64,000 nucleotides of DNA, from assembly GCA_964016885.1 (NCBI GenBank), contig OZ024747.1, positions 19,406,001-19,470,000 on the forward strand, written 5' to 3'. The notes beneath the pieces were generated by a model, which saw only the letters and a program-made list of their open reading frames with translations, did not search any database and was not told the DNA's origin. Origin of the DNA: Eledone cirrhosa (taxonomy: Eukaryota). Both the position numbers and the translations under genes were made by a program. Positions 1 through 56,768 of the stretch are shown piece by piece; position 1 is the stretch's first letter, and each line of letters starts with the position of its first letter.

Positions 1-632
1 TTGTATCTGTACATGTGTATATGCAGTTATTAGATGCAAAACCTTTGGAATGTTTTACATATTTTTACTGTTCCATTAATGGATTGTACTTGTAATTTCC
101 TAACTAGTTGTGTTCTTGCTGTTCCTGTGAAGCCTAGCTTCTCAAGATTTGTATTGAGGCAGTTACTAACATATCCCAGTGCCCCAATCACAGGCATAAA
201 TCTGAAGGTGTAATCAGGGTGGAGTATCTGCAGATTTCTCATCAGTTCTGCATAAATATTCTCCTTTTCGCTAATCTTTGATATTATATTGGCATCTGCT
301 GGACAGCTAATTTCCACTACTGTGCATGCTTTATTCTCCCTGTCCCATATCATAATATCTGGTCTGTTATGCCTGCATTTTATTGGGGTTTTTACTGGAA
401 CATTCCACCAGTACTCTTTCATATTATGTACATGGATGTCTTCAACATTGCTGTAGCTTTTAATGTGTTTATTATCGGGGCTATCTTTTTTACGAACTGC
501 ATTGTACAGTGTTTTGGCCACTACATCATGCCTCATAGGTAGATAGTACCGCGATGACATCTTTGGGCAGCTGCTGATGACATGGGTGATATCCTCGATG
601 TTAGTTCTGTAGAGTCTGCACTTGTAATCACA
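1..632 (-). mobile_element. R4/Dong-like RLE non-LTR retrotransposon, family A, 5'-truncated C-terminal fragment
   Basis: Minus frame 30-632 reads CRLY..EDITHVISSC (zinc knuckle, one Cys lost), RHDVV, WWNVPV, HNRPDIMIWD, VVEISCP, EKENIY, IGALG, the restriction-like endonuclease signature. It abuts (TATG)n at 633. Confidence 0.85.
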
Positions 633-3030: not shown

Positions 3031-3039
3031 AGTTAAAAA

Positions 3040-3233
3040 GGGTGGTGGATTGGCAGTATCGGTAGAGGGTCGGACGCTATGCTTTGCAGCAAAGAGTTAC
3101 GGCCTTTTACGGTCTGAGTTCAAATCCCGCCGGGGTTAACTTTGCATTTCATCCTTACAGCGTCGATAAAATAAAGTACCAATAATACACTGGGATAATT
3201 GCTGGCCTTGTGCCAACAAGTAGAAACAATTAT
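3040..3233 (+). mobile_element. tRNA-derived SINE, family S1
   Basis: A box TGGCAGTATCGG, B box GTTCAAATCC, core CTTTGC(C)TTTCATCCTTAC(G)GGGTCGATAAAATAAAGTACCAG, tail GCTGGCCTTGTGCCAA..GTAGAAACAATT. At least 9 copies in the window. Confidence 0.9.
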
Positions 3234-3678: not shown

Positions 3679-3681
<3 letters not shown>

Positions 3682-3861
3682 AAAGGTAAACAGAAATAAC
3701 AACAAAATCGGTACAGTATATGGAAGGGATATATTAGATTAACGCTTGATATAGCAGGAAGGGGCTCTTAACGTTTCGGACGGTAGTCCTTCATCAGAAG
3801 AAAGAATGAGAAGCAAATTAGATTGAGGGTTGGAATTGGAAAAATGTCTTTAGACAGGTCC
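3679..3861 (-). mobile_element. PLE-derived non-autonomous element, family B (HHR + tail), next to (TA)n
   Basis: Carries the HHR listed below. Its tail (..GTTATTTCTGTTTACCTTTTAC) recurs at 25327-25418, 40948-41025, 55510-55772 and 56280-56562. Confidence 0.75.
3765..3802 (-). ncRNA. Minimal type I hammerhead ribozyme motif
   Basis: Minus strand reads TTCTT-CTGATGA-A-GGAC TACC GTCC-GAAACGT-T-AAGAG: intact core, 4-bp stem II, palindromic ACGT stem III, 5-bp stem I. Confidence 0.8.
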
Positions 3862-10077: not shown

Positions 10078-10082
<5 letters not shown>

Positions 10083-10174
10083 AAGGAATTGTGGTAAGCA
10101 ACCAGATGGACCATAACGCACCAGAAATAGCCGTCGAAACGGCTTGAGCTCTACCGTCGGGGTCATACTTTTTC
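10078..10174 (-). mobile_element. Family A hairpin mini-element (internally deleted)
   Basis: Family A tail (CAAAGGAATTGTGG..GGACCATAACGCACC) joined directly to GCCGTCGAAACGGCTTGAGCTC..CGGGGTC, in (TA)n. Confidence 0.75.
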
Positions 10175-10192
10175 ATATATATATATATATAT

Positions 10193-10368
10193 AACGAAGG
10201 AAATGTGGACCATAACGCACCAAAGTACTCAATACTTGAGGTAGTAGAGTGGGTAATAGGAACCAGTAAGACCCCGACAGCTGAGCTCAAGCCGTTTCGA
10301 CGGCTAATTCTGGACTCAGAATTAGCCGTCGAAACGGCTTGAGCTCAGCTGTCGGGGTCTTACTGGTT

Positions 10369-10370
<2 letters not shown>
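10193..10370 (-). mobile_element. Family A hairpin mini-element
   Basis: Tail plus a roughly 55-bp perfect inverted repeat around TCTG-GACT-CAGA, flanked by (TA)n. Confidence 0.8.
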
Positions 10371-14100: not shown

Positions 14101-14282
14101 AAAATTGACTAATCCAGCATTAAAATCTCTAACGCGGCCACAGCTCATAAATTACATTCAGATCCATCGTCATTAAACACATTACAGAAGTTAATAGAAG
14201 ACCGATTGTATAAAGACCGAATATATTTTGCAAGTGAAGTAGTGTGATTTCCCTTCATTTATGAAAGAAGCCAGGCGTGTAT

Positions 14283-14455
14283 AATTGTTTCTACTTTTGG
14301 CACAAGGCCAGCAATTACCTAGTACATTACTGGTACTTTATTTTATCGACCCCGTAAGGATGAAAGGCAAAGTTGACCTCGGCGGGATCTGAACTCAATC
14401 GTAAAGGGACGTGACTATACTGTAAAGCCTGTCCGACCCTCTAATGACTGACAAT
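14283..14455 (-). mobile_element. SINE S1 with TSD GCGTGTATAAT
   Basis: S1 sequence; TSD at 14275 and 14462. Confidence 0.85.
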
Positions 14456-17885: not shown

Positions 17886-18043
17886 GGACACCATGCTTTC
17901 CAGCATAGTTACGTCCCTTTACGGTCTGAGTTCAAATCCCGCCGAGGTTTACTTTACCTTTCATCCTTACGGGGTCGATAAAATAAAGTACCAGTAATGC
18001 ACTGGATAATTGCTGGCCTTGTGCCTAAAGTCGAAACAATTAT
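17886..18043 (+). mobile_element. SINE S1, 5'-truncated
   Basis: S1 B box, core and tail. Confidence 0.85.
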
Positions 18044-18686
18044 TTTATTTATTCATTGTAAATAAATTACATATTTGCGAGTTGATCCTAAAATTGAAGT
18101 TAGTAGTTATTGTAATACACCATTTCGTTGCGATATGTTGCAATATATTAAGAATGGCCATAAATATTTTTACATTTGATAGTAGATGATTTAAACATTG
18201 AATTTACTGAAATCCAGGTTTCTCCGGTACGTGTTATATTAATAATAGGTGGTGGGGGTTTACTTGTGTTCGTAATGTTAAAACAAGCTATAAGAATACG
18301 AAATTGTATGCTGAAAGAGATATTTTTGTACGATAGGATGTTGATAATGCCAATCAAAAAGAGACGGATCAGCTATATTTCACTTTAATTCTAAGAATCA
18401 TTAAGATAATTAGGTAATTAACCAGATAATTATATTAATTGCTTCGTTTAATCTTATCGCCTTCTTCTTGTTCACACCTATTCCATACTATTAATTCGCC
18501 TGTTCATGGTGTAATGTTGGATATGTGTACATATGAATATTCATGATTTATCTTACGTTTGTTTGTGGCTGCTCTTTGTTTATTTTTTTATTAGGCCAAG
18601 TCTAGTCTGGGACTTGTTCTTTGCTTTTTCATTTATGCGTACTCGTGTTTAGCAACACTAGGAAACACTGATACCATAGTGATACG

Positions 18687-22711: not shown

Positions 22712-22783
22712 TATGTATGTATGTATGTATGTATGTGTGTATGTATGTATGTATGTATGTATGTATGTATGTATGTATGTATG

Positions 22784-23273
22784 TTTTCTCTTTCTCTTAA
22801 TTTCGAGTATATTTTTTTGACCGGCCACCTTCCTGGTGGCAAGGTTGTAAAAGAAAAGAAATTGTCATCCCTTGAATCGCAAGAATGTTTTGCATATTTT
22901 GAAGGTGCCAGCTATCGCAGCCATTTGTAGACTATGAATTAGGGAGCTGCGCTTTTTGTCCGCAAATCCAAGTTCAGTCATACTTTGGTCCAAGCGGGTT
23001 GGTATATAACCCGTAGCACCAATAATGATGGGTATGAAGCTAAAGGTGTATCTTGGATACTGGATTTGTAAACTCCTCATCAATGGTCCGTAGATGTCCT
23101 CCTTCTCCTGTATTTTTCTGACAACGTTTACATCAAGTGGGCAGCTGATCTCCACAACAGAACACGTTTTCAATGTGTGGTCCCAAACTACAATATCAGG
23201 CCGGTTGTGCTTTAATTTGGTGGCAGTTTTTATTTTCAGGTTCCACCAGTATTCCTTAGTGCCATCTGTCTCA

Positions 23274-23765: not shown

Positions 23766-24191
23766 TGTGTGTCTGAGTGTGCGTGTAATTTTTGAAATTA
23801 CGTATATATATGTAGCGTATTCATATATGTATGTCTCTAATTTCGGAAATATATATTTTATTTTCCCATCATTTCAAAATTCGTTCACATAAAACAGGAT
23901 ACCTAAATTCTTAAAAATCTTTTTATTTACTAATTTATTTTAGTTTATTTCGATTTTTTTAACACCGTAAATGGAAAAGCTGTAGCTATATCTGCTTTTA
24001 TAGGTAATACCGTTAATGTTGCGTATTTTCATATTATTTATTACACTCATGTTATTTATTACATTTTATATTTTCTCTGCCTTTATGATGTTAACATTAT
24101 TGTTGCTTTTCGAATTGGTGATTTTCTGCTGTTCATTACTTTTCAGTTATCATTGATTCCATTCCCTTGTTATAACTATTATTATTATCGA

Positions 24192-24383
24192 AGGGCGGTG
24201 GATTGTCAGTATCGGTAGAGGGTCTGACGCCATGCTTTGCAGCAAAGTGTTACGGCCCTTTATGGCCTGAGTTAAAATCCCGCCGAGGTTAACTTTGCCT
24301 TTCATCCTTACGGGGTCGATAAAATAAAGTACCAGTAATACACTGGGATAATTGCTGGCCTTGTGCCAAAAGTAGAAAGAATT
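24192..24383 (+). mobile_element. SINE S1 (first of a tandem pair)
   Basis: Full S1 sequence. Confidence 0.9.
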
Positions 24384-24384
24384 A

Positions 24385-24588
24385 GGGCGGGCAGTGGATT
24401 GGCAGTATCGGTAGAGGGTCGGACGCCATGCTTTGACGCATATAGTTATGGCCCTTTCCATTCTGAGTTCAAATCTCGCCGAGGTTCACTTTGCCTTTAA
24501 TCCTTACGGGGTACGGGGTCGATAAAATAAAGTACCAGTAATACACTGGGTAATTGCTGGCCTTGTGCCAAAAGTAGAAGCAATATTA
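24385..24588 (+). mobile_element. SINE S1 (second of a tandem pair)
   Basis: Full S1 sequence immediately after the first copy. Confidence 0.9.
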
Positions 24589-28910: not shown

Positions 28911-29080
28911 AACGAAGGAAATGTGGTAAGGAACCAGGTGGACCATAACGCACCAAAGTACTCAATACTTAGGGTAGTAGAGTGGGTAATAAGAACGAGT
29001 AGGACCCCGACGGCTGAGCTCAAGCCGTTTCTAGCCGTTGAAACGGCTTGACCTCAGCCGTCGGGGTCCTACTCGTTCCT
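28911..29080 (-). mobile_element. Family A hairpin mini-element
   Basis: Tail plus inverted repeat GAACGAGTAGGACCCCGACGGCTGAG / CTCAGCCGTCGGGGTCCTACTCGTTC. Confidence 0.8.
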
Positions 29081-31805: not shown

Positions 31806-31919
31806 TGGCTCCGACAAAGATATCTTTCATAATCATAGTTTTTATATATGAAGTCTACCAAAGCTCCCACACGTATCATTACGGCAATCTTTAGAAATCT
31901 ATCTCATTATATGTATATA

Positions 31920-32108
31920 TAATTGTTTCTACTTTAGGCACAAGGCCAGCAATTACCCAGTGCATTACTGGTACTTTATTTTATCGACCCCGTAAGGATG
32001 AAAGGCAAAGTCAACCTCGGCGGGACTTGAACTCAGATCGTAGAGGGACGTAACTATGCTGGAAAGCATGGCGTCCGACCCTCTACCGATACTGCCAATC
32101 CACCGCCA
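31920..32108 (-). mobile_element. SINE S1
   Basis: Full S1, flanked by a CATTATA..TGTATATATAAT duplication. Confidence 0.9.
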
Positions 32109-32699
32109 TTATATATGTATATATAATACAAGGGCTATGCATTTCCGCACACATTGCAACACTGAATCTCTCGAGGGGTACATTAAAGGTATTTGTGTTT
32201 GTATAATGATCAACCTCTTACACGTTAAATTCGCGAGCGACTCACACTATTGATCAAACACTCAGAATACTCCTCGAGCACAGAAACAGGAAGAGCAAAT
32301 TATACCTTGGCACTATTTGAACGCAGAACGTATAGAGACGAACGGCATAAGTTTTTTTCAGCCACTGTTGACAATGTCATCCACTTTCTTTTAACACTAA
32401 CAATTTTCCTTGGTACAAATAAATAAAGAACCAAAATATATCTAAGTTGAGAATACACTATTCAAAAGGTGATAAAGAAATTTTATGTTTACCACAGAGT
32501 AATGGAATTCAGCATCTATTGCTATTAGGAAATATTTATAAACTGCAGAACTTTGAAACGTTTTAGCGAACTATGTAAGAAAAATAATACAAATAGCTAT
32601 AAAACACCAACGAAGACAAGTTTTCTGTCATCAAAGGAGACATCATATATAAAACAGATACAGAGGTAATAGGAAAATGTAGGGATGATGGATGAATCA

Positions 32700-32930: not shown

Positions 32931-32948
32931 CAAAAATAATTAAATAAT

Positions 32949-33133
32949 TATTTCTACTATTGGCACAAGGCCAGCAATTACCCAGTACATTACTGGTACT
33001 TTATTTTATCGACCCCGTAAGGATGAAAGGCAAAGTCAACCTCGGCGGGATTTAAACTCAGATCGTAAAGGGACGTAAATATGCTGGAAAGCATGGCGTC
33101 CGACCCTCTACCGATACTGCCAATCCACAGCCC
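32949..33133 (-). mobile_element. SINE S1 whose TSD also encloses a captured segment
   Basis: TSD AAATAATTAAATAAT at 32934-32948 and 33276-33290. Confidence 0.9.
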
Positions 33134-33134
33134 T

Positions 33135-33281
33135 TGGAAATCTGATAATTGTTTCCCCTATAGAGATGAGTTAATATCTAGTTCACGTTAGCATTGGCAA
33201 ATTATTTTATCTAGTTGCAGACACGTCTTCCCGAAGCCCTTCGCTAACTAATCATGATCAAGGAGTTGCGAGTGTAAATAA
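33135..33281. repeat. 147-bp inverted copy of 34761-34907
   Basis: Base-by-base reverse complement; no mismatch noticed. Confidence 0.92.
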
Positions 33282-35824: not shown

Positions 35825-36036
<212 letters not shown>

Positions 36037-36811
36037 CATATATAACGGCGATGAATTAGTTTTGCGAGGTTTTTGAAATGAAATCGTGTGTCGAAACAAA
36101 TATTGTTATACTTGGGGATAAATAAATACATACTCAAGCACAATAACAACAAACACATATAAACACACACTAGTAAAGATAGAATACATTAACCAATACA
36201 CAGCCACCCAATCACGAACACACATCAAACAAAACACTATACACACACGCAAACGCATGCGCAAAGAAGACAAAATAAAATACACAAATAAATAAAAGTA
36301 TAAACAGAGTAAATAAAGATGGCGTAGAAAATACAATGCAACGGGAGGAAAAAATAGCACCACTGACGATGTTGCAGATGTGCAACGAAAGAACTTTGAT
36401 AAACTATATAGATGTGTTTGTGTCTATATTGTATCTGTATTTTTGACCGTTGGTCAGTCATTGGCAACATTGAGGACCGAATAAATTAGATTACCGCTAT
36501 AAAGGACACAGAAGCGAAAAGCGAAAACCAACCAAACAGTGAGTGTGTTCTGTTATTAATTCTAGCAATATTACACAAATATGACCCTCCCAAGTATAAC
36601 AATATATATATATATATATGTAGATAAATCTACCAAAAGTTTACGGTAGTGTCCAATCCGTATGAATGAAGAACTCAATGAATTCGGATATCATGAAAAG
36701 AGAAGATGCATTCAAAAACTACTTTCGGTGAAAAATAAACGGAAAACAGAGTCAAGATAAATTAATAAAATAATGAATAAACAAAGAAACAGTTCCTTAT
36801 ATTAAAAAAAT

Positions 36812-36953
36812 TCATCATTTTACGATCGTTTCTAGGATATATATGTGTTAGAGTTGGTATGCATATTCTATAGATCTATGTACAATATTTATACAAACTA
36901 TCAGAGGGAATATACATACCTACACATATATATGCTGTCTTCAGAAATAATGA
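36812..36953 (-). ncRNA. Hammerhead-like motif with about 105-nt stem II insert (left arm)
   Basis: TCATTATTT-CTGAAGA-[105 nt]-GAAA-CGATCG-TA-AAATGATGA; 9-bp stem I. Confidence 0.55.
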
Positions 36954-37584
36954 TATTTGTTTATTGAAAAAAACAAAGATTCAATACAATAGGTCTGTTT
37001 GGGAACAGGTTTTGAATTGACCAATAGAGAGATAGTGAGGGTCAGGATAGTAATATAGTAGTAGAAGAACCTTAAATTATGGGTAGAGGAAGGTAGATTT
37101 CAGTTTTGGATGGAAAAGAATATTATGAATGAAGGATTATTTTAGGGAAGAAATAGGTCTTAAGCTGACCTCAGAAATAATTTTATTTGTTCATTTAATA
37201 AAACCAACAAAGATCTAATATATTCTGTCTGTTTGGTAAGAGGTTTAGAATTAACCAGTAGAAAGTTAATAATTGGCCAAATGGTAAAATAGTAGTAATT
37301 GAAGCTTATTTTAGGGGTGAAAATAGGTCAGGTGGTCAATAAAAGGTATACAAGCAATTGCTGTTATAAAATAGTAATGCCAGTACAAATATCTAAGGTG
37401 ACTAAAGTTTTAAGATAAGAATGTTAGTGAAAAAAATACATCTATGAAAAGAATATAAATTAATTTAATTGATGGGTATATGTATATTGATAAAATTATA
37501 CTAATACATATAGATATGATAAATAAGAGTTAGATGCAGTTGAAAAGTGCTGTTAAAGATGAGGGGAAATTAAAAGAATATAAA

Positions 37585-37674
<90 letters not shown>

Positions 37675-37846
37675 TTATATTTCGTTTCTGAATTTGTTTA
37701 GCAAGATTCTTTATCTGAAATCGTGTGTTGAAACCGATATTGTTATACTGGTGCGTGTGTTTCTTATTGGCAACATGACCCTCCCAAAGTATAACAATAT
37801 ATACTTATACATATATATATATATATATATACATATATATACACAT

Positions 37847-37918
<72 letters not shown>

Positions 37919-38000
37919 TTATATATATATATATACATATATATACACATACACACACGCACATACACACATATATATATATATATATATACATACACAT

Positions 38001-38045
<45 letters not shown>

Positions 38046-38169
38046 GATATATACATGCATACATACATACATACATACACATATATATAGACACACATAT
38101 ACACTTCTATATACATATAATTATTGGGGGGGGGGGGATTAAATTTATTAGTGAGAAATAGTAAATATA

Positions 38170-38724
38170 TATAGTATATAAATGTAAAGTTGTTATTGAT
38201 ATATAGGAGCTACCTCTAACAAATTTAAGGTAAGATTTAATACCCACAAACATAGTTTTAAAAATGCCGGACTAGCTAATACAACATCTCTAGCTGAAAT
38301 AATAAATAGTTATAGAAAGAGGAATATAGAATATGATCTGACCTGGAGTGTGCTCAAAAGGTCCACCCCTTATCAAAATAGTAGAAATGAATGTAGATTA
38401 TGTTCCCAAGAACTTTTTGAAATAATGAAATCTAAGGATTTCCTATTAAATAAGCGACAGGAATTAATAATTGTTTCTACTTTTTGGCACAAGGCCAGCA
38501 ATTATCCAGTGTATTACTGGTACTTTATTTTATCGACCCCGTAAGGATGAAAGGCAAAGTCAACCTCGGCGGGATTTGAACTCAGATCGTAAAGGGACGT
38601 AACTATGCTGGAAAGCATGGTTTGCGACCCTCTACCGATACTGCCAATCCACCGCGACAGGAATTAATAATATCGTGTAATCATAAACTGAGAAAAACCT
38701 TAAAATATTATAAACCTAATTAAT
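38170..38724 (+). pseudogene. PLE GIY-YIG endonuclease C-terminus, frameshifted and interrupted by a SINE
   Basis: IVYKCKV / YIGATSNKFKVRFNTHKHSF..TTSLA..LTWSVLKRSTPY..CRLCSQELFEI..LLNKRQELIISCNHK..LKYYKPN*. Confidence 0.85.
38472..38655 (-). mobile_element. SINE S1 inserted in the GIY-YIG coding region
   Basis: 16-18-bp TSD (GC)GACAGGAATTAATAAT at 38454 and 38654. Confidence 0.92.
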
Positions 38725-39598
38725 ATACACTTTAGAAATTAATTTATAAATTATTTTTAATTTAGTTAACCTATAATTAATATTCTACTACTGATGAACT
38801 ACATAATTCTGCTTTAAAAATTATAAACCTAATTAATATACACTTTAGAAATTAATATAATACTATTTTTAATTTAGTTAACCTATAATTAATATTCTAC
38901 TACTGATGAACTACATAATTCTGCTTTAAAAATTATAAACCTAATTAATATACACTTTAGAAATTAATATAATACTATTTTTAATTTAGTTAACCTATAA
39001 TTAATATTCTACTACTGATGAACTACATAATTCTGCTTTAAAAATTATAAACCTAATTAATATACACTTTAGAAATTAATATAATACTATTTTTAATTTA
39101 GTTAACCTATAATTAATATTCTACTACTGATGAACTACATAATTCTGCTTTAAAAATTATAAACCTAATTAATATACACTTTAGAAATTAATATAATACT
39201 ATTTTTAATTTAGTTAACCTATAATTAATATTCTACTACTGATGAACTACATAATTCTGCTTTAAAAATTATAAACCTAATTAATATACACTTTAGAAAT
39301 TAATATAATACTATTTTTAATTTAGTTAACCTATAATTAATATTCTACTACTGATGAACTACATAATTCTGCTTTAAAAATTATAAACCTAATTAATATA
39401 CACTTTAGAAATTAATATAATACTATTTTTAATTTAGTTAACCTATAATTAATATTCTACTACTGATGAACTACATAATTCTGCTTTAAAAATTATAAAC
39501 CTAATTAATATACACTTTAGAAATTAATATAATACTATTTTTAATTTAGTTAACCTATAATTAATATTCTACTACTGATGAACTACATAATTTTGCTT
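38708..39598 (+). repeat. 112-bp tandem repeat, 8 near-identical copies
   Basis: Units start at 38708, 38821, 38933, 39045 and so on. Confidence 0.95.
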
Positions 39599-39816
39599 TC
39601 CTTCTTACAAATATCATTTCCTAAAACTGATACCATTAAGTAAACATATATAATGCTTTAACTTCAGGTTATGACTCTATGTTCCTTGAAAACTATATAT
39701 ATTTACTATTTCTCACTAATAAATTTAATCCCCCCCCCCAATAATTATATGTATATATAAGTGTATATGTGTGTCTATATATATGTGTATGTATGTATGT
39801 ATGCATGTATATATCT

Positions 39817-39847
<31 letters not shown>

Positions 39848-39853
39848 TATGTG

Positions 39854-39890
<37 letters not shown>

Positions 39891-39940
39891 ATGTGTGTGT
39901 GTGTATGTGTATATATATGTGTATATATATATATATATAA

Positions 39941-39998
<58 letters not shown>

Positions 39999-40034
39999 AT
40001 GTGTATATATATGTATATATATATATATGTATAA

Positions 40035-40074
<40 letters not shown>

Positions 40075-40705
40075 TTTATATTCTTTTAATTTCCCCTCAT
40101 CTTTAACAGCACTTTTCAACTGCATCTAACTCTTATTTATCATATCTATATGTATTAGTATAATTTTATCAATATAAATATACCCATCAATTAAATTAAT
40201 TTATATTCTTTTCATAGATGTATTTTTTTCACTAACATTCTTATCTTAAAACTTTAGTCACCTTAGATATTTGTACTGGCATTACTATTTTATAACAGCA
40301 ACTGCTTGTATACCTTTTATTGACCACCTGACCTATTTTCACCCCTAAAATAAGCTTCAATTACTACTATTTTACCATTTGGCCAATTATTAACTTTCTA
40401 TTGGTTAATTCTAAACCTCTTACCAAACAGACAGAATATATTAGATCTTTGTTGGTTTTATTAAATGAACAAATTAAATTATTTCTGAGGTCAGCTTAAG
40501 ACCTATTTCTTCCCTAAAATAATCCTTCATTCATAATATTCTTTTCCATCCAAAACTGTAATCTACCTTCCTCTACCCATAATTTAAGGTTCTTCTACTA
40601 CTATATTACTATCCTGACCCTCACTATCTCTCTATTGGTCAATTCAAAACCTGTTCCCAAACAGACCTATTGTATTGAATCTTTGTTTTTTTCAATAAAC
40701 AAATA

Positions 40706-40847
40706 TCATTATTTCTGAAGACAGCATATATATGTGTAGGTATGTATATTCCCTCTGATAGTTTGTATAAATATTGTACATAGATCTATAGAATATGCAT
40801 ACCAACTCTAACACATATATATCCTAGAAACGATCGTAAAATGCTGA
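40706..40847 (+). ncRNA. Hammerhead-like motif with about 105-nt stem II insert (right arm)
   Basis: CTGAAGA at 40715, GAAA at 40827, palindromic CGATCG; stem II base ATATATATGTGT/ACACATATATAT. Confidence 0.55.
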
Positions 40848-40896
40848 ATTTTTTTAATATAAGGAACTGTTTCTTTGTTTATTCATTATTTTATTA

Positions 40897-40950
<54 letters not shown>

Positions 40951-41025
40951 TATATCAAGCGTTAACCTAATATATACCTTCCATATACTGTTCCGATTGT
41001 GTTGTTATTTCTGTTTACCTTTTAT

Positions 41026-41074
<49 letters not shown>

Positions 41075-44889: not shown

Positions 44890-45564
44890 GGAGAGAAGAA
44901 TACTGCATGTTCCACATGGATAATATGTTATAAAATGAGTCCCTCATCAGTGATTTGCCAACGATTATAGATATTTCATTGCATTAAAAATCATATACCT
45001 CACGTTGGTGCAATAATAACTAAATTAAGTTATTAGGACAATTAAAACGCGTAAAGCGAGTGACACAAGTAAACAACAAAGAGGAAAGCTAACCGTAGAT
45101 AGGTAGGGAACAAGCTACATAGTTATTCTGTTAGCATAAGCTAGGTGAATATATGAGCGCTTAGAAAAAAGACCTTTCGAGATGAATCCAAATGTAAGAA
45201 AGAAGGAAAATGTATTCGTCGCGAACGGGGTGAAGTGAGAAGGGGAGAAACAGTGAGTGAGTGAGTGGAAGTGTGAGGAAGAGTTAACTGACATGACAGA
45301 TGGGGCGAAAGAAAGTAGGAGAAACAGAGAGAACGAGGGAGCAGTAAGAGAGAGAGAGAGAAAAACAGAATCGCAGTTTAGGTAAATATATGTGAACAAA
45401 TGGGGAGAAGAATACTGCAGGTTGCACATGGATAACATGTTAGAAAATGAGTCCCTCATCAGTGATTTGCCAACGATCATAGATATTTCATTGCATTAAA
45501 AATCATATACCTCACGTTGGTGCAATAATAACTAAATTAAGTTATTAGGACAATTAAAACGCGT
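44890..45564 (-). mobile_element. Element with about 160-bp direct repeats (44890-45052, 45403-45564) containing CTGATGAGGGA; pLTR-like
   Basis: Direct comparison. Partial HHR core on the minus strand; adjoins (TA)n. Confidence 0.5.
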
Positions 45565-46597
45565 TGAAAAGGTAACACACTAGAAAGAGATAGTGTGCCA
45601 TCAATAAAACAGGGAAAACCAGCAGTGTATGGAATCTATAATCTATGGAATGCAGGGTAGACACAATAATTAAAAATATAAATAAAAATAAAAATGTATA
45701 TACGCACCTCTATAACTATATAACACACGCGTACAAATCCAAAGAGATCTGTTTCGCCAGGAAATTGTTGACTGAAATGGAATAGCCTATGGTTCATCAG
45801 CGCGAGCAAGACTATACATTCCAGAGAATCTAAAGCGACCGTCCAGCTACACGCGGCAGAGAGATGTCACAGCGTGTTTAGGGCAGTGAACCAGTGGTCT
45901 CTGAAGGACGAGCTGCTACAAAGGGCAGCCCCAAAACCTCTATCTCTCTCTAGTGTGTTACCTTTTCAACATATTGTATTTTAAAGAGCTCAGGATTCCT
46001 TTTCCTTTGAGCACATTATTGACGGAATAACAAGAGTCTATGGCTCCGTTAATTTATCGTGATATTTCGCTCCTTATAACAGTCTTTCCTCTCTCTCTGT
46101 TTGGTTGAGCACACTTCTTTGAGTTGTTTTGGGGCTGCCCTTTCTAGCAGCTCGTCCCTCAGATACCACTGGTTCACCGCCCTAAACACGCTGTGACATC
46201 TCTCTGCCCCGTGTAGTTGGACAGACGCTTTAGATTCTCTTAGAGTTGTCTGAAATGTATAGTCTTGCACGCGCTGATGAACCATATTCTATTCCATTTC
46301 AGTCAACAACTTCCTGGCGAAACAGATCTCTTTGGATTTGTACGCGTATGTTATATAGTTATAGAGGTGCGTATATACATTTTAATTTATATTTTTAATT
46401 ATTGTGTGTCTACCCTGCCTTCCATAGAGTATAGATTCCATACACTGCTGGTTTTCCCTGTTTTATTGATTTGCACACTATCTCTCTCTAGTGTGTTACC
46501 TTTTCAACTTATTGTATTTTAAAGAACTCAGGATTCCTTTTCTTTTGAGCACATTATTGACAGGGAATAACGAGAGTCTATGGCTCCGTTAATTTAT

Positions 46598-46604
<7 letters not shown>
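45563..46604 (+). mobile_element. PLE-like composite: inverted arm, partial arm + tail, full arm + tail
   Basis: 45563-45937 is inverted relative to about 46126-46508. The tail is duplicated at 45940-46065 and 46478-46604. HHR-like CTGATGA..CCA/TGG..GAAAC-AGATCT at 46274-46329. Confidence 0.65.
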
Positions 46605-46629
<25 letters not shown>

Positions 46630-46633
<4 letters not shown>

Positions 46634-46846
46634 TAATAAAAACAATGAAATAAAAACAAAGAACAGGTTCCTTATATTGAAAAAAAAAAATCCTCATTTT
46701 ACGATCGTTTCTGGGATATATATGTGTGTTGGTATGTATATCATAATAAAGATCTATGTAACAAAATATTACAAAATTTATCTTGACTCTGTTTCTCTAT
46801 CGTTACATTTTGAATGCATGTTCTCTACCGTTTATTTTGGTAGATT

Positions 46847-46850
<4 letters not shown>
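46630..46850. mobile_element. Miniature derivative of the Naiad-like PLE (tail-less arm + tail)
   Basis: 46630-46775 matches 36757-36895, and 46775-46850 matches the reverse complement of the 36619-36760 tail. Another tail piece lies at about 17156-17195. Confidence 0.65.
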
Positions 46851-46891
<41 letters not shown>

Positions 46892-46893
<2 letters not shown>

Positions 46894-47083
46894 CAAAGGA
46901 ATTGTGGTAAGGAACCAGATGGACCATAACGCACCAGCGTACTCAATACTTAGGGTAGTAGAGTGGGAAATAGGAAAAAGTATGACCCCGACGGCAGAGC
47001 TCAAGCCGTTTCGACGGCTATTTCTGGACGCGAAATAGCCGTCGAAAAGGCTTGAACTCTGCCGTCGGGGTCATAATTTTTCC
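46892..47083 (-). mobile_element. Family A hairpin mini-element (most complete copy)
   Basis: About 80-bp tail plus about 50-bp inverted arms around TTTC-TGGACGC-GAAA, in (TA)n. Confidence 0.85.
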
Positions 47084-47099
47084 TATATATATATAGAGA

Positions 47100-51662: not shown

Positions 51663-51811
51663 CATCCGCATGAGAAATGGTGTTGAATGTAGATTGGTGT
51701 GTAGGCGTGGTGTTCGGGTCAATATAGATGAAAGACATAATTTTTTTTCCTGGACATAAATATGAATATATTTCTGTACGTTTTCACATTCTTTATATGT
51801 TGTTAATGTAA

Positions 51812-51995
51812 TAACTGCTTCTACTTTTGGCACAAGGCCAGCAATAACCCAATACATTACTGGTACTTTATTTTATCGACGCCTTAAGGATGAAAGGCAA
51901 AGTTAACCTCGGCGGGATTTGAACTCAAACCATAAAGGGGCGTAACTCTTTGCAGCAAAGCATAGCGTCAGACCCTCTACCGATACTGCCAATCC
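51812..51995 (-). mobile_element. SINE S1
   Basis: S1 sequence. Confidence 0.88.
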
Positions 51996-52594
51996 ATAAC
52001 GAACAATCTACACGTGCAAATGGAGCGTTACAAAGCCACAACACAAATTCCTAAGTTCTATAACCAGCACTAGGTCACAGATGTGAGGTTGTGAGTTTGG
52101 TTTCCGGATTAGGCGGTACATTGTGTTCTTCAACAAGACACTTTCTTTCCCGTTGCTCCAGATTTGTAGATATGACGTGACGTCATTGATGGCAAGCTGT
52201 ATTGTCCTTTGGTTCCCCATTGGACAACATGGGTGGCGTGAACACGGTAGACTGGTATCCATGGTGGGCTTGTAGTCTTCCAGAAAACACCTTGACAGGG
52301 TCTCTGCCTCCGAAGCGTAAATTTGTAGGTGCAAATGCCATATATATATATATATATATATATAGATATATATATATATAGATATATATATATATATATG
52401 GGTATATATGTATATATATGTATATATATGTATATATATACCCATATCTGGCCCGGAGTAGTAGTACCTGTTAGGGCCCCATTTATGGGTTTAATAACTA
52501 CCTTATTCGAGTGGCGCCGGTAAGGTATTGTCAGCCATTGAAAATAAAATTAAAATAAAATATATATATATATACATACATACATATATATCTG

Positions 52595-54295: not shown

Positions 54296-54297
<2 letters not shown>

Positions 54298-54420
54298 AAA
54301 GGAATTGTGGTAAGGAACCAGATGGACCATAACGCACCAGAGTACTCAATACTTAGGGTAGTAGAGTGGGAAATAGCCGTCGAAACGGCTTGAGCTCTGC
54401 CGTTGGGGTCATACTTTTTC
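54296..54420 (-). mobile_element. Family A mini-element (left arm deleted)
   Basis: Tail joined to the right arm at a GAAATAG microhomology. Confidence 0.8.
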
Positions 54421-54482
54421 TTATATATATATATATATAATATATATATATATATATACACACATATATGTTGTAGAGAGTT

Positions 54483-55513: not shown

Positions 55514-55782
55514 ATTAAGGCTAAATAATGAGTCGCGTTACTCCTGAGTTTTACCTACTTGTGTCAATGGACCTGTTATTTTTATCTAAAGACATTTTTT
55601 ACAATGTACAACCCGCCCGTCCCTTCAATCTATCTTATTTCTCATTCTTTCTTTTGATGAAGGACTAGCGTCCTAAACGTTTAGACCCTCTTCCTGGTAT
55701 TTTAGGCGTTAACCTAATATATTCCTTTCCATATACTGTACCGATTGTGTTATTTCTGTTTACCTTTTACATACAAACACAA

Positions 55783-56053: not shown

Positions 56054-56055
<2 letters not shown>

Positions 56056-56186
56056 CGAAGGAAATGTGGTAAGGAACCAGGTGGACCATAACGCACCAAA
56101 GTACTCAATACTTGAGGTAGTAGAGTGGGTAATAGGAACCAGTAAGACCCCGACAGCTGAGCTCAGCTGTCGGGGTCTTACTGGTT

Positions 56187-56188
<2 letters not shown>
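56054..56188 (-). mobile_element. Family A mini-element folded at GAGCTC
   Basis: Perfect palindrome GGAACCAGTAAGACCCCGACAGCTGAG|CTCAGCTGTCGGGGTCTTACTGGTTCC plus tail. Confidence 0.85.
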
Positions 56189-56277
<89 letters not shown>

Positions 56278-56598
56278 TGTATGTAAAAAGTAAACAGAAA
56301 TAACACAATCGGTACAGCATATGGAAAGGAATATATTAGATTAACGCTTAAAATACCAGGAAGAGGGTCTAAACGTTTAGGACGCTAGTCCTTCATCAAA
56401 AGAAAGAATGAGAAATAAGATAGATTGAAGGGACGGGCGGGTTGTAAATTGGAAAAAAGGTCTTTAGATAAAAATAACAGGTCCATTGACACATATATGG
56501 CCCTGTGTGAAGTAGGTAAAACTCAGGAGTAACGCGACTCATTATTTAGCCTTAATAAAACTATATATATGTATATATATATATATGTATATATATAA

Positions 56599-56768
56599 GT
56601 TATTCCGGGTTGAATCGGAGGAAACCACAGTAAGTAAGGTACTCAATACATAGCAGAGTTTAAAAGTTTTAATATAGAAGAGCTTCTACAGGACTAGAAC
56701 TGTTTCATTCGTGAGAAATCATCAGGGAGCTCCTCCCTGGTGATTTCTCACGAATGAAACAGTTCTAT
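56599..56768 (-). mobile_element. Family C mini-element
   Basis: Reverse orientation of 51232-51420 with a shorter second arm. Confidence 0.75.

What the first reader, a model, noticed from the sequence alone, without database searches (positions are those of the whole stretch)
46892..47083. Several unrelated miniature Penelope-type families share one 'tail + arm + tail-less inverted arm' design in (TA)n arrays
Seen: family A (10078, 10193, 28911, 35825, 46892, 54296, 54483, 56054), family C (51232, 56599), the 45563-46604 composite, the 46630 mini copy and the 4.3-kb element at 36619-40900 share this layout. Each has an unpaired tail of about 70-140 bp, an arm, and an inverted arm that stops before the tail (family A: at about the same TTCC|TA position). 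Nearly all lie in or against (TA)n. Family A subfamilies differ in arm sequence (GGAACCAGTAAG vs GGAAAAAGTATG vs GAACGAGTAG), yet each copy's two arms match each other. Known: PLEs have pseudo-LTRs, often inverted and with a tail, and carry minimal HHRs. Inference: these are 100-200-bp non-autonomous PLE-mobilised hairpin retroelements whose inverted arm is templated from the other arm. At this density they may be a major, poorly catalogued repeat class.
Basis: partly seen in the sequence, partly recalled or inferred. Interest (0 to 1): 0.8.

Follow-up and report, generated by a model that had tools for sequence, protein, structure and literature searches.

The report
Short two-armed Penelope retroelement insertions
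These small tail-plus-hairpin repeats in TA runs are the cut-short ends of full-size Penelope-like jumping genes that are still intact elsewhere in this genome; they likely arise when both ends of the cut target DNA each start a copy of the element's RNA and both copies would run off its start, which gives a testable handle on how these elements insert.

Summary
The layout is real, but families A, C and D (the 4.3-kb element and 46630) are not separate mini-families. They are the 3' ends of Hydra-clade Penelope-like elements (PLEs). All 20 loci with a 770-795-codon RT + GIY-YIG frame end in the family A arm; window copy 56055 matches an intact element at 111 of 111 bases. The centre differs from copy to copy, so each hairpin is made at insertion. 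The inverted arm is often not copied from the other arm: in 9 of 45 consecutive short copies it reaches at least 10 nt further, and in 4 the arms do not overlap (two rows corrected by eye). About 80% of young arms stop within 75 nt, peaking at an initiator-like A 29 nt below a TATA-like box. Best reading (inferred): both target ends prime reverse transcription at two fixed sites 80 nt apart near the mRNA 5' end and run off it. Only 45563-46602 is truly ORF-less: a 540-bp hammerhead-bearing unit. The architecture is known; the statistics test an open mechanistic question.

The parts
46893..46972 (-). Family A tail: the 80 nt between the two fixed outer ends; in intact elements it runs on into the 5' leader of the ORF
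   Evidence: tail continues into the ORF leader in 18 of 20 long-ORF loci
46973..47029 (-). Tailed arm: 3' half of the hammerhead (stem II 3' strand, GAAA, stem III, cut site, stem I 3' strand); 5' end at position -137 of the parent unit
47030..47031 (.). Two bases at the head-to-head junction found in neither template arm
47032..47083 (+). Tail-less inverted arm, about -132 to -81 of the parent unit, ending at TTCC|TA
46847..46892 (.). (TA)n target, left; a shorter (TA)n follows at 47084-47095
10080..10175 (.). Family A copy: 45 nt of tail joined to a tail-less inverted arm; the two parts do not overlap in the parent
10193..10370 (.). Family A hairpin of the young subfamily, 16-nt gap in the tail
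28912..29080 (.). Family A hairpin, another subfamily; right flank is not TA
35825..35934 (.). Diverged family A relative: tail joined to inverted arm, no first arm (ends approximate)
54296..54421 (.). Family A copy: tail (to -80) joined to a tail-less inverted arm
56055..56188 (.). Family A hairpin centred on a 6-nt palindrome; tailed arm identical to the end of an intact element
   Evidence: 111 of 111 bases against L181
51232..51417 (.). Family C two-armed copy with a complete type I hammerhead on the tailed arm
56598..56767 (.). Family C copy with a shortened inverted arm; the same tail runs into a Hydra-type ORF start in L230
36619..40902 (.). Family D long two-armed insertion with nested repeats; near-complete parent in L375
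38203..38460 (+). GIY-YIG endonuclease coding fragment of family D, 40% identical to the family A protein
46631..46846 (.). Family D relative: inverted tail-less arm joined to tail only; not a hairpin
45563..46602 (+). Family F: 540-bp ORF-less unit (46063-46602) preceded by a partial tandem (45940-46062) and a tail-less inverted arm (45563-45937); hammerhead motif at about 46270-46347

Best explanation
The elements are very short insertions of full-size Hydra-clade Penelope-like retroelements, each made of two arms joined head to head, and they likely form by two-ended target-primed reverse transcription that would run off the 5' end of the element's mRNA. Shown: intact 3.5-kb parents with the same ends; two fixed outer ends 80 nt apart, each just before TAT; nearly always one of each per insertion; arm lengths that vary separately; a sharp pile-up of 5' ends at -137/-138. 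Inferred: (1) the GIY-YIG endonuclease cuts both strands in (TA)n; (2) each target end primes on the RNA, one at the tail end and one at the base of hammerhead stem I, helped by 3 nt of pairing; (3) because these sites lie only about 60 and 140 nt from the transcription start in the upstream pseudo-LTR, most cDNAs end at the RNA 5' end; (4) the two cDNA ends are joined with 0-1 nt overlap and filled in; (5) long copies arise when the same sites in a downstream pseudo-LTR are used. Family F is a 540-bp ORF-less unit that likely borrows such an enzyme.
For: Parent: 20 of 20 loci with open frames of 770-795 codons carry the arm about 1.1-1.2 kb downstream; unit 3538 bp. End classes: all 13 long loci with both outer ends visible are tailed + tail-less; 101 of 106 short hairpins have exactly one tailed end, 4 none, 1 two (about 30 were chosen with a tailed query). 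Independence: in 45 consecutive short young copies the tail-less arm reached further in 21, the tailed arm in 18, equal in 6 as parsed. After correcting two mis-parsed rows (L200, L213), it is at least 10 nt longer in 9, the reverse in 0, and 4 do not overlap. In 7 of 20 long loci the ORF sits on the tail-less arm. Pile-up: 10,811 exact matches to an arm motif against 2,180 to a motif 75 nt further 5'; modes at -137 (37) and -138 (28) of 168 arms. Start-site signs: a TATA-like box 29 nt above the modal A in family A; TATAAATA 29-31 nt above the matching A in four family C-like subfamilies whose spacers differ. The pile-up lies inside stem II in A but at the start of stem I in C, and at neither cut site. 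In vitro, a PLE protein cuts and extends both strands, starts at two internal sites that bound the tail, and is predicted to be a dimer (PMC11167929).
Against: No RNA data, so the transcription start is not observed. The extra G expected from a cap is only weakly supported: 9 of 13 unexplained bases before -138 arms are G (p = 0.009 against one third), 2 of these from a set chosen by likeness to the window copy; at other positions G is 15 of 40. The family A TATA-like box is also part of hammerhead stem II, so its conservation is confounded. Family D shows no TATA box at that distance. Many arms end at -131 to -136, which needs trimming. One-sided deletion at a palindrome centre after insertion could mimic unequal arms. 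D. virilis Penelope has a TATA-less internal promoter (PMC2377424). Frangieh et al. found no difference in start site between strands and no homology to the cut DNA, which does not explain the strict tailed/tail-less pairing seen here. One RNA or two is not resolved.
Confidence: 0.68

Rival explanations
1. Fold-back or self-priming: one cDNA (or an antisense RNA) snaps back and copies itself until 3 nt of likeness to the TA target ends it; unequal arms come from later one-sided deletions.
For: Arms share subfamily and rare variants (L011, L050, L059, L061; L249). Some centres sit on short palindromes (56055, L213). In about half the copies the inverted arm is contained in the tailed arm.
Against: Copies 98-100% identical to the intact parent already have varied centres. 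Non-overlapping arms (4 of 45; also window 10078, 35825, 54296, 46630). L185 and L187 tailed arms hold continuous stretches missing from the other arm, and 7 of 20 long loci carry the ORF on the tail-less arm. Tail-less ends also occur alone and at both ends (L265, L278, L287, L291).
Confidence: 0.17
2. Two-ended priming is right, but the pile-up is a stall of the enzyme at RNA structure or bound protein in the hammerhead region, not the RNA 5' end.
For: Position -135 to -142 is the 3' strand of a predicted inner helix of stem II; ends spread over -131 to -142; no TATA box in family D.
Against: Family C arms pass through the whole hammerhead and stop at its 5' edge, family A arms stop inside it; only the distance to a TATA-like box is common to both.
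Confidence: 0.3
3. Families A and C are self-propagating non-autonomous mini-elements with a fixed hairpin unit, or MITE-like DNA transposons.
For: High copy number and a narrow size class.
Against: Centres differ among near-identical copies; ends are those of RT + GIY-YIG elements; family A minis lack the 5' half of the hammerhead and the TATA-like box; the two ends are unequal, unlike terminal inverted repeats.
Confidence: 0.04

Closest known systems
Hydra-clade PLEs, including Hydra-1_Obim of Octopus bimaculoides (Craig et al. 2021, PMC8557442)
   Same: C-terminal GIY-YIG, RW motif, DKT, CxCx5C linker, CxxC and CxH, no CCHH, hammerhead near the 3' end, (TA)n targets
   Different: Unit is 3.5 kb (most are under 3 kb); tail is 80 nt (30-40 bp is described); family A hammerhead has the U3-A8 core and a long stem II; the listed Hydra-1_Obim hammerhead differs from those seen here. 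Short-copy statistics were not in the passages read.
Canonical PLE insertion unit: partial tandem, adjacent inverted 5'-truncated copy, tail at one end (PMC8557442, PMC3846280, PMC2377424)
   Same: Identical layout in the long copies; the minis are its shortest form. PMC4209133 already notes hammerhead pairs 100-700 bp apart on opposite strands as truncated PLEs.
   Different: Here about 80% of young arms end in one narrow zone, and separate arm lengths argue against the self-priming proposal.
Anolis Poseidon in vitro (Frangieh et al. 2024, PMC11167929)
   Same: Both strands cut and extended; two internal start sites bound the tail; AT-rich targets; hammerhead cleavage not needed
   Different: Different clade; sites here are 80 nt apart, each followed by TAT, and are used one per end.
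Animal non-LTR retrozymes (PMC7229834; bioRxiv 10.64898/2026.07.22.740005) and non-autonomous Chlamys such as MRC1
   Same: Family F: ORF-less head-to-tail unit with a type I hammerhead motif
   Different: 540 bp (retrozymes 170-400 nt), mostly partial tandems with PLE-type tail and inverted arm; circular RNA untested.
L1 twin priming (recalled; only a search listing seen)
   Same: Both target strands prime, giving an inversion
   Different: L1 arms cover separate parts of one RNA; here they usually cover the same part.

Membership tests
Hydra-clade PLE (family A parent) | Single ORF with RT and C-terminal GIY-YIG endonuclease | tested here: met
   717-aa ORF with RT core motifs and a YIG motif. 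Pfam gave only a weak GIY-YIG hit on a fragment (E 0.069) and none on the whole protein; top homologue carries PF01541.
Hydra-clade PLE (family A parent) | RWK-like motif; DKG changed to DKT | tested here: met
   RWR and DKT in A and D, RWR in C; features
Hydra-clade PLE (family A parent) | CxCx5C linker; CxxC and CxH around the conserved E and N; CCHH absent | tested here: met
   read from the translations; absence of CCHH judged by eye
Hydra-clade PLE (family A parent) | Hammerhead near the 3' end | tested here: met
   type I fold with U3-A8 core (variant described in PMC4209133); Rfam gave no match; cleavage not testable
Hydra-clade PLE (family A parent) | Insertion into (TA)n | tested here: met
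   109 of 113 ends against 8.4% background
Hydra-clade PLE (family A parent) | RT groups with reference Hydra proteins in a tree | not tested
Non-autonomous fixed-unit mini-element (families A, C, D) | Constant unit copied as a whole, no coding parent continuous with it | tested here: not met
   variable centres and lengths; ends continuous with ORFs. For C only the ORF start was linked (L230).
Non-autonomous PLE / retrozyme (family F) | ORF-less unit in head-to-tail repeats with a type I hammerhead | tested here: met
   no PLE protein match in the 540-bp unit; 930 junction matches; all 30 junction loci continue into the unit start and none into a PLE ORF, though several stop or diverge early
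Non-autonomous PLE / retrozyme (family F) | Expressed as self-cleaved linear or circular RNA | not testable with these tools
   no RNA search was run for family F
MITE / DNA transposon | Equal terminal inverted repeats with fixed internal sequence | tested here: not met
   one end carries an 80-nt tail, centre varies, ends belong to RT elements

The most novel reading that the evidence does not exclude
PLE insertion is obligately two-ended: one enzyme complex primes both target ends at two fixed RNA sites, one tailed and one tail-less, and most events copy only the short 5' leader up to the cap. This single rule would explain the tail, the inverted copy and the partial tandems of PLEs in general, and tens of thousands of genomic hairpins would be run-off products that map the element's transcription start. 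Family F would be a link between PLEs and retrozymes, moved by the same machinery.
Probability: 0.5. Interest if true: 0.72.

Novelty: new member of a known kind. Interest (0 to 1): 0.45.

Why it matters
How PLEs make their tandem, inverted and tailed insertions is described as undefined (PMC8557442; PMC11167929). This genome offers a young family with intact ORFs (20 of the 150 listed matches have frames of 770 codons or more) and over 10,000 near-identical arms. These give precise predictions: two start sites, one per target end, and a stop at -138. For annotation, such hairpins should be filed as short PLE insertions, not as MITEs, SINEs or miRNA-like hairpins. The repeat class itself is ordinary PLE debris.

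Tried and rejected
A guessed CTGANGA core directly above the arm found nothing relevant (3 hits); a looser pattern gave 33 mostly chance junction matches. These loci and those were left out of the cap-G count but are in the histogram and the hairpin set. Rfam found only low-complexity miRNA hits and no hammerhead. Pfam and PDB sequence searches did not name the protein. No RNA holder listed. Contigs of three runs laid on the pseudo-LTR showed no joints in table 5; depth fell steeply above -142 in X1, which may be the source sample and is not counted as support. A general survey of hammerhead families for TATA spacing was uninformative. The 'GC' before -137 arms (11 of 22) is inflated: 8 come from loci chosen by likeness to the window copy. 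Hammerhead cleavage as the source of either end was rejected: the cut site is at -98 and neither end maps there. A parent ORF for family F was sought in six extended loci; ORFs nearby belong to other families. Target duplication could not be read inside (TA)n. Repbase and Dfam were not available, so whether these families are already deposited is unknown. Searches for a printed account of two-ended priming or run-off in PLEs listed none; subscription papers are not covered, and the preprint's supplements were not opened.

Full report
Observation. At 46893-47083 an 80-bp tail, an arm and a tail-less inverted arm lie between TA runs. The best genome hits are 92-97% alike over the whole length; the 30 examined differ in their centres. 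The genome has 3.0 Gb in 1,796 contigs; that it is an octopus is my guess from recall and was not tested. Of the eight family A copies named, four are hairpins, three join a tail to a non-matching inverted arm, and one is a degraded piece.

The parent. A motif just 5' of the arm has 3,422 matches, and its loci carry RT and GIY-YIG coding pieces. A protein search listed 150 matches, 20 with frames of 770 codons or more. I fetched those 20. All end in the family A arm 1.1-1.2 kb after the ORF; in 18 the tail also runs straight into the ORF leader as a partial tandem; the unit is 3538 bp. Positions below count back from the tail end. The 717-aa protein has the motifs listed for the Hydra clade and over 2,000 mostly unnamed homologues of about 700 aa. 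Craig et al. list an octopus Hydra element. The family C tail runs into a Hydra-type ORF start in L230. Family D (36619-40902, 46630) has a near-complete parent in L375 and a GIY-YIG piece in the window.

Ends. The two outer ends are fixed: the tail end (0) and TTCC|TA (-80). In the parent both are followed by TAT. The second lies at the base of the extended hammerhead stem I. 109 of 113 ends abut (TA)n against 8.4% by chance. All 13 long loci with both ends visible and 101 of 106 short hairpins have one end of each kind.

Arm independence. I took the first 100 exact matches of the young subfamily along contig C1, about 59 insertions by my count. The parser resolved 45 short two-armed copies: tail-less arm longer in 21, tailed longer in 18, equal in 6. 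Two rows were mis-parsed (L200, a 6-nt duplication; L213, variant bases). After correction the tail-less arm is at least 10 nt longer in 9 and the reverse occurs in none; 4 do not overlap. Six insertions have a single arm, three of each kind. Junctions mostly overlap by 0 or 1 nt (27 of 45 rows). A tail-less arm cannot template a tail, and a tailed arm cannot template what it lacks, so simple fold-back fails unless one-sided deletions are frequent and fast. Arms do share subfamily and rare variants, so they come from one source locus or from one subfamily active at the time.

The pile-up. In the young subfamily 10,811 arms match at -102 to -81 but only 2,180 match 75 nt further 5'. The 5' ends peak at -137 and -138. 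The A at -138 sits in a YYANWYY initiator-like word (consensus recalled), 29 nt below a TATA-like box. In family C the short arms begin at about the first base of stem I, 29-31 nt below TATAAATA, kept in four subfamilies. Family D shows an initiator-like word but no such box. A non-templated G precedes 9 of 13 informative -138 arms; this is weak, and partly from a biased set. The hammerhead cut site (-98) explains neither end.

Mechanism. Frangieh et al. showed both-strand cutting and extension and two internal start sites bounding the tail, near the ORF start. With a promoter in the pseudo-LTR, such sites lie close to the mRNA 5' end, so run-off gives minis. My odds: truncated Hydra PLE ends 0.95; two-ended priming about 0.75; run-off at the RNA start rather than a stall about 0.65. 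No RNA evidence exists here.

Family F. 45563-46602 is a 540-bp unit with a hammerhead motif, no PLE coding match, head-to-tail junctions (930 matches) and outer ends at 0 and about -81 to -85. It is a real non-autonomous candidate, resembling both PLEs and retrozymes. Its helper was not found.

What was read. PMC8557442: passages, section 11, supplement part 2 and searches. PMC11167929: parts 1-2 of 4. PMC4209133: part 1 of 4. bioRxiv 10.64898/2026.07.22.740005: part 1 of 5. PMC3846280, PMC2377424, PMC7229834, PMC13282606: passages only. Earlier AI notes on other genomes report similar short PLE copies with a shared 5' edge; I saw them after noting the start-site idea and count them as leads only.

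Verdict. Real, PLE-derived and abundant, but mostly the ordinary short end of known insertion products. The value lies in the mechanistic test and in family F.

Noticed in passing
L041, L047, L055, L034, L048, L036 (around 1500); L367:3857-6064: Head-to-head joins between arms of different PLE families with no TA at the joint, suggesting template switching or two different RNAs in one event. L034-L055 came from a selected search; frequency unknown.
   Followed up: partly
L264:340-1500; L163:6127-6724: An arm ending near -137 is preceded by an internal ORF piece, as if the enzyme re-engaged inside the RNA after reaching its 5' end.
   Followed up: partly
G000:C1:91473233-91493742: Five tandem family A units spaced about 3,540 bp, plus an inverted one.
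   Followed up: no
window 38700-39599: Eight near-identical 112-bp units expanded from a single family D 3' sequence.
   Followed up: partly
window 3038-3233, 14280-14443, 17886-18044, 24191-24584, 31918-32110, 32944-33135, 38465-38655, 51808-51996: An abundant 190-bp SINE-like family, one copy inside the family D endonuclease fragment.
   Followed up: no
window 3680-3854, 40948-41026, 55585-55770, 56290-56470; 37680-37790, 36045-36112: Ends of at least two further TA-targeting families with hammerhead-like motifs or tails, nested in the same TA arrays.
   Followed up: no
L371:1480-4637; L372:1427-3434: Family F variants that leave the 540-bp unit after about 100-113 nt into other sequence; one forms a 2.7-kb tandem without a PLE protein match.
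   Followed up: partly
L368:1033-3312: An open 760-codon frame of a different PLE clade (RT plus C-terminal GIY-YIG).
   Followed up: no
window 30-620, 633-1411, 22759-23270: Repeated 3' fragments of a non-LTR element with a restriction-like endonuclease motif ending in (ATGT)n.
   Followed up: no
L372:281-1240: Integrase-like open frame, probably of an LTR retrotransposon; seen only.
   Followed up: no
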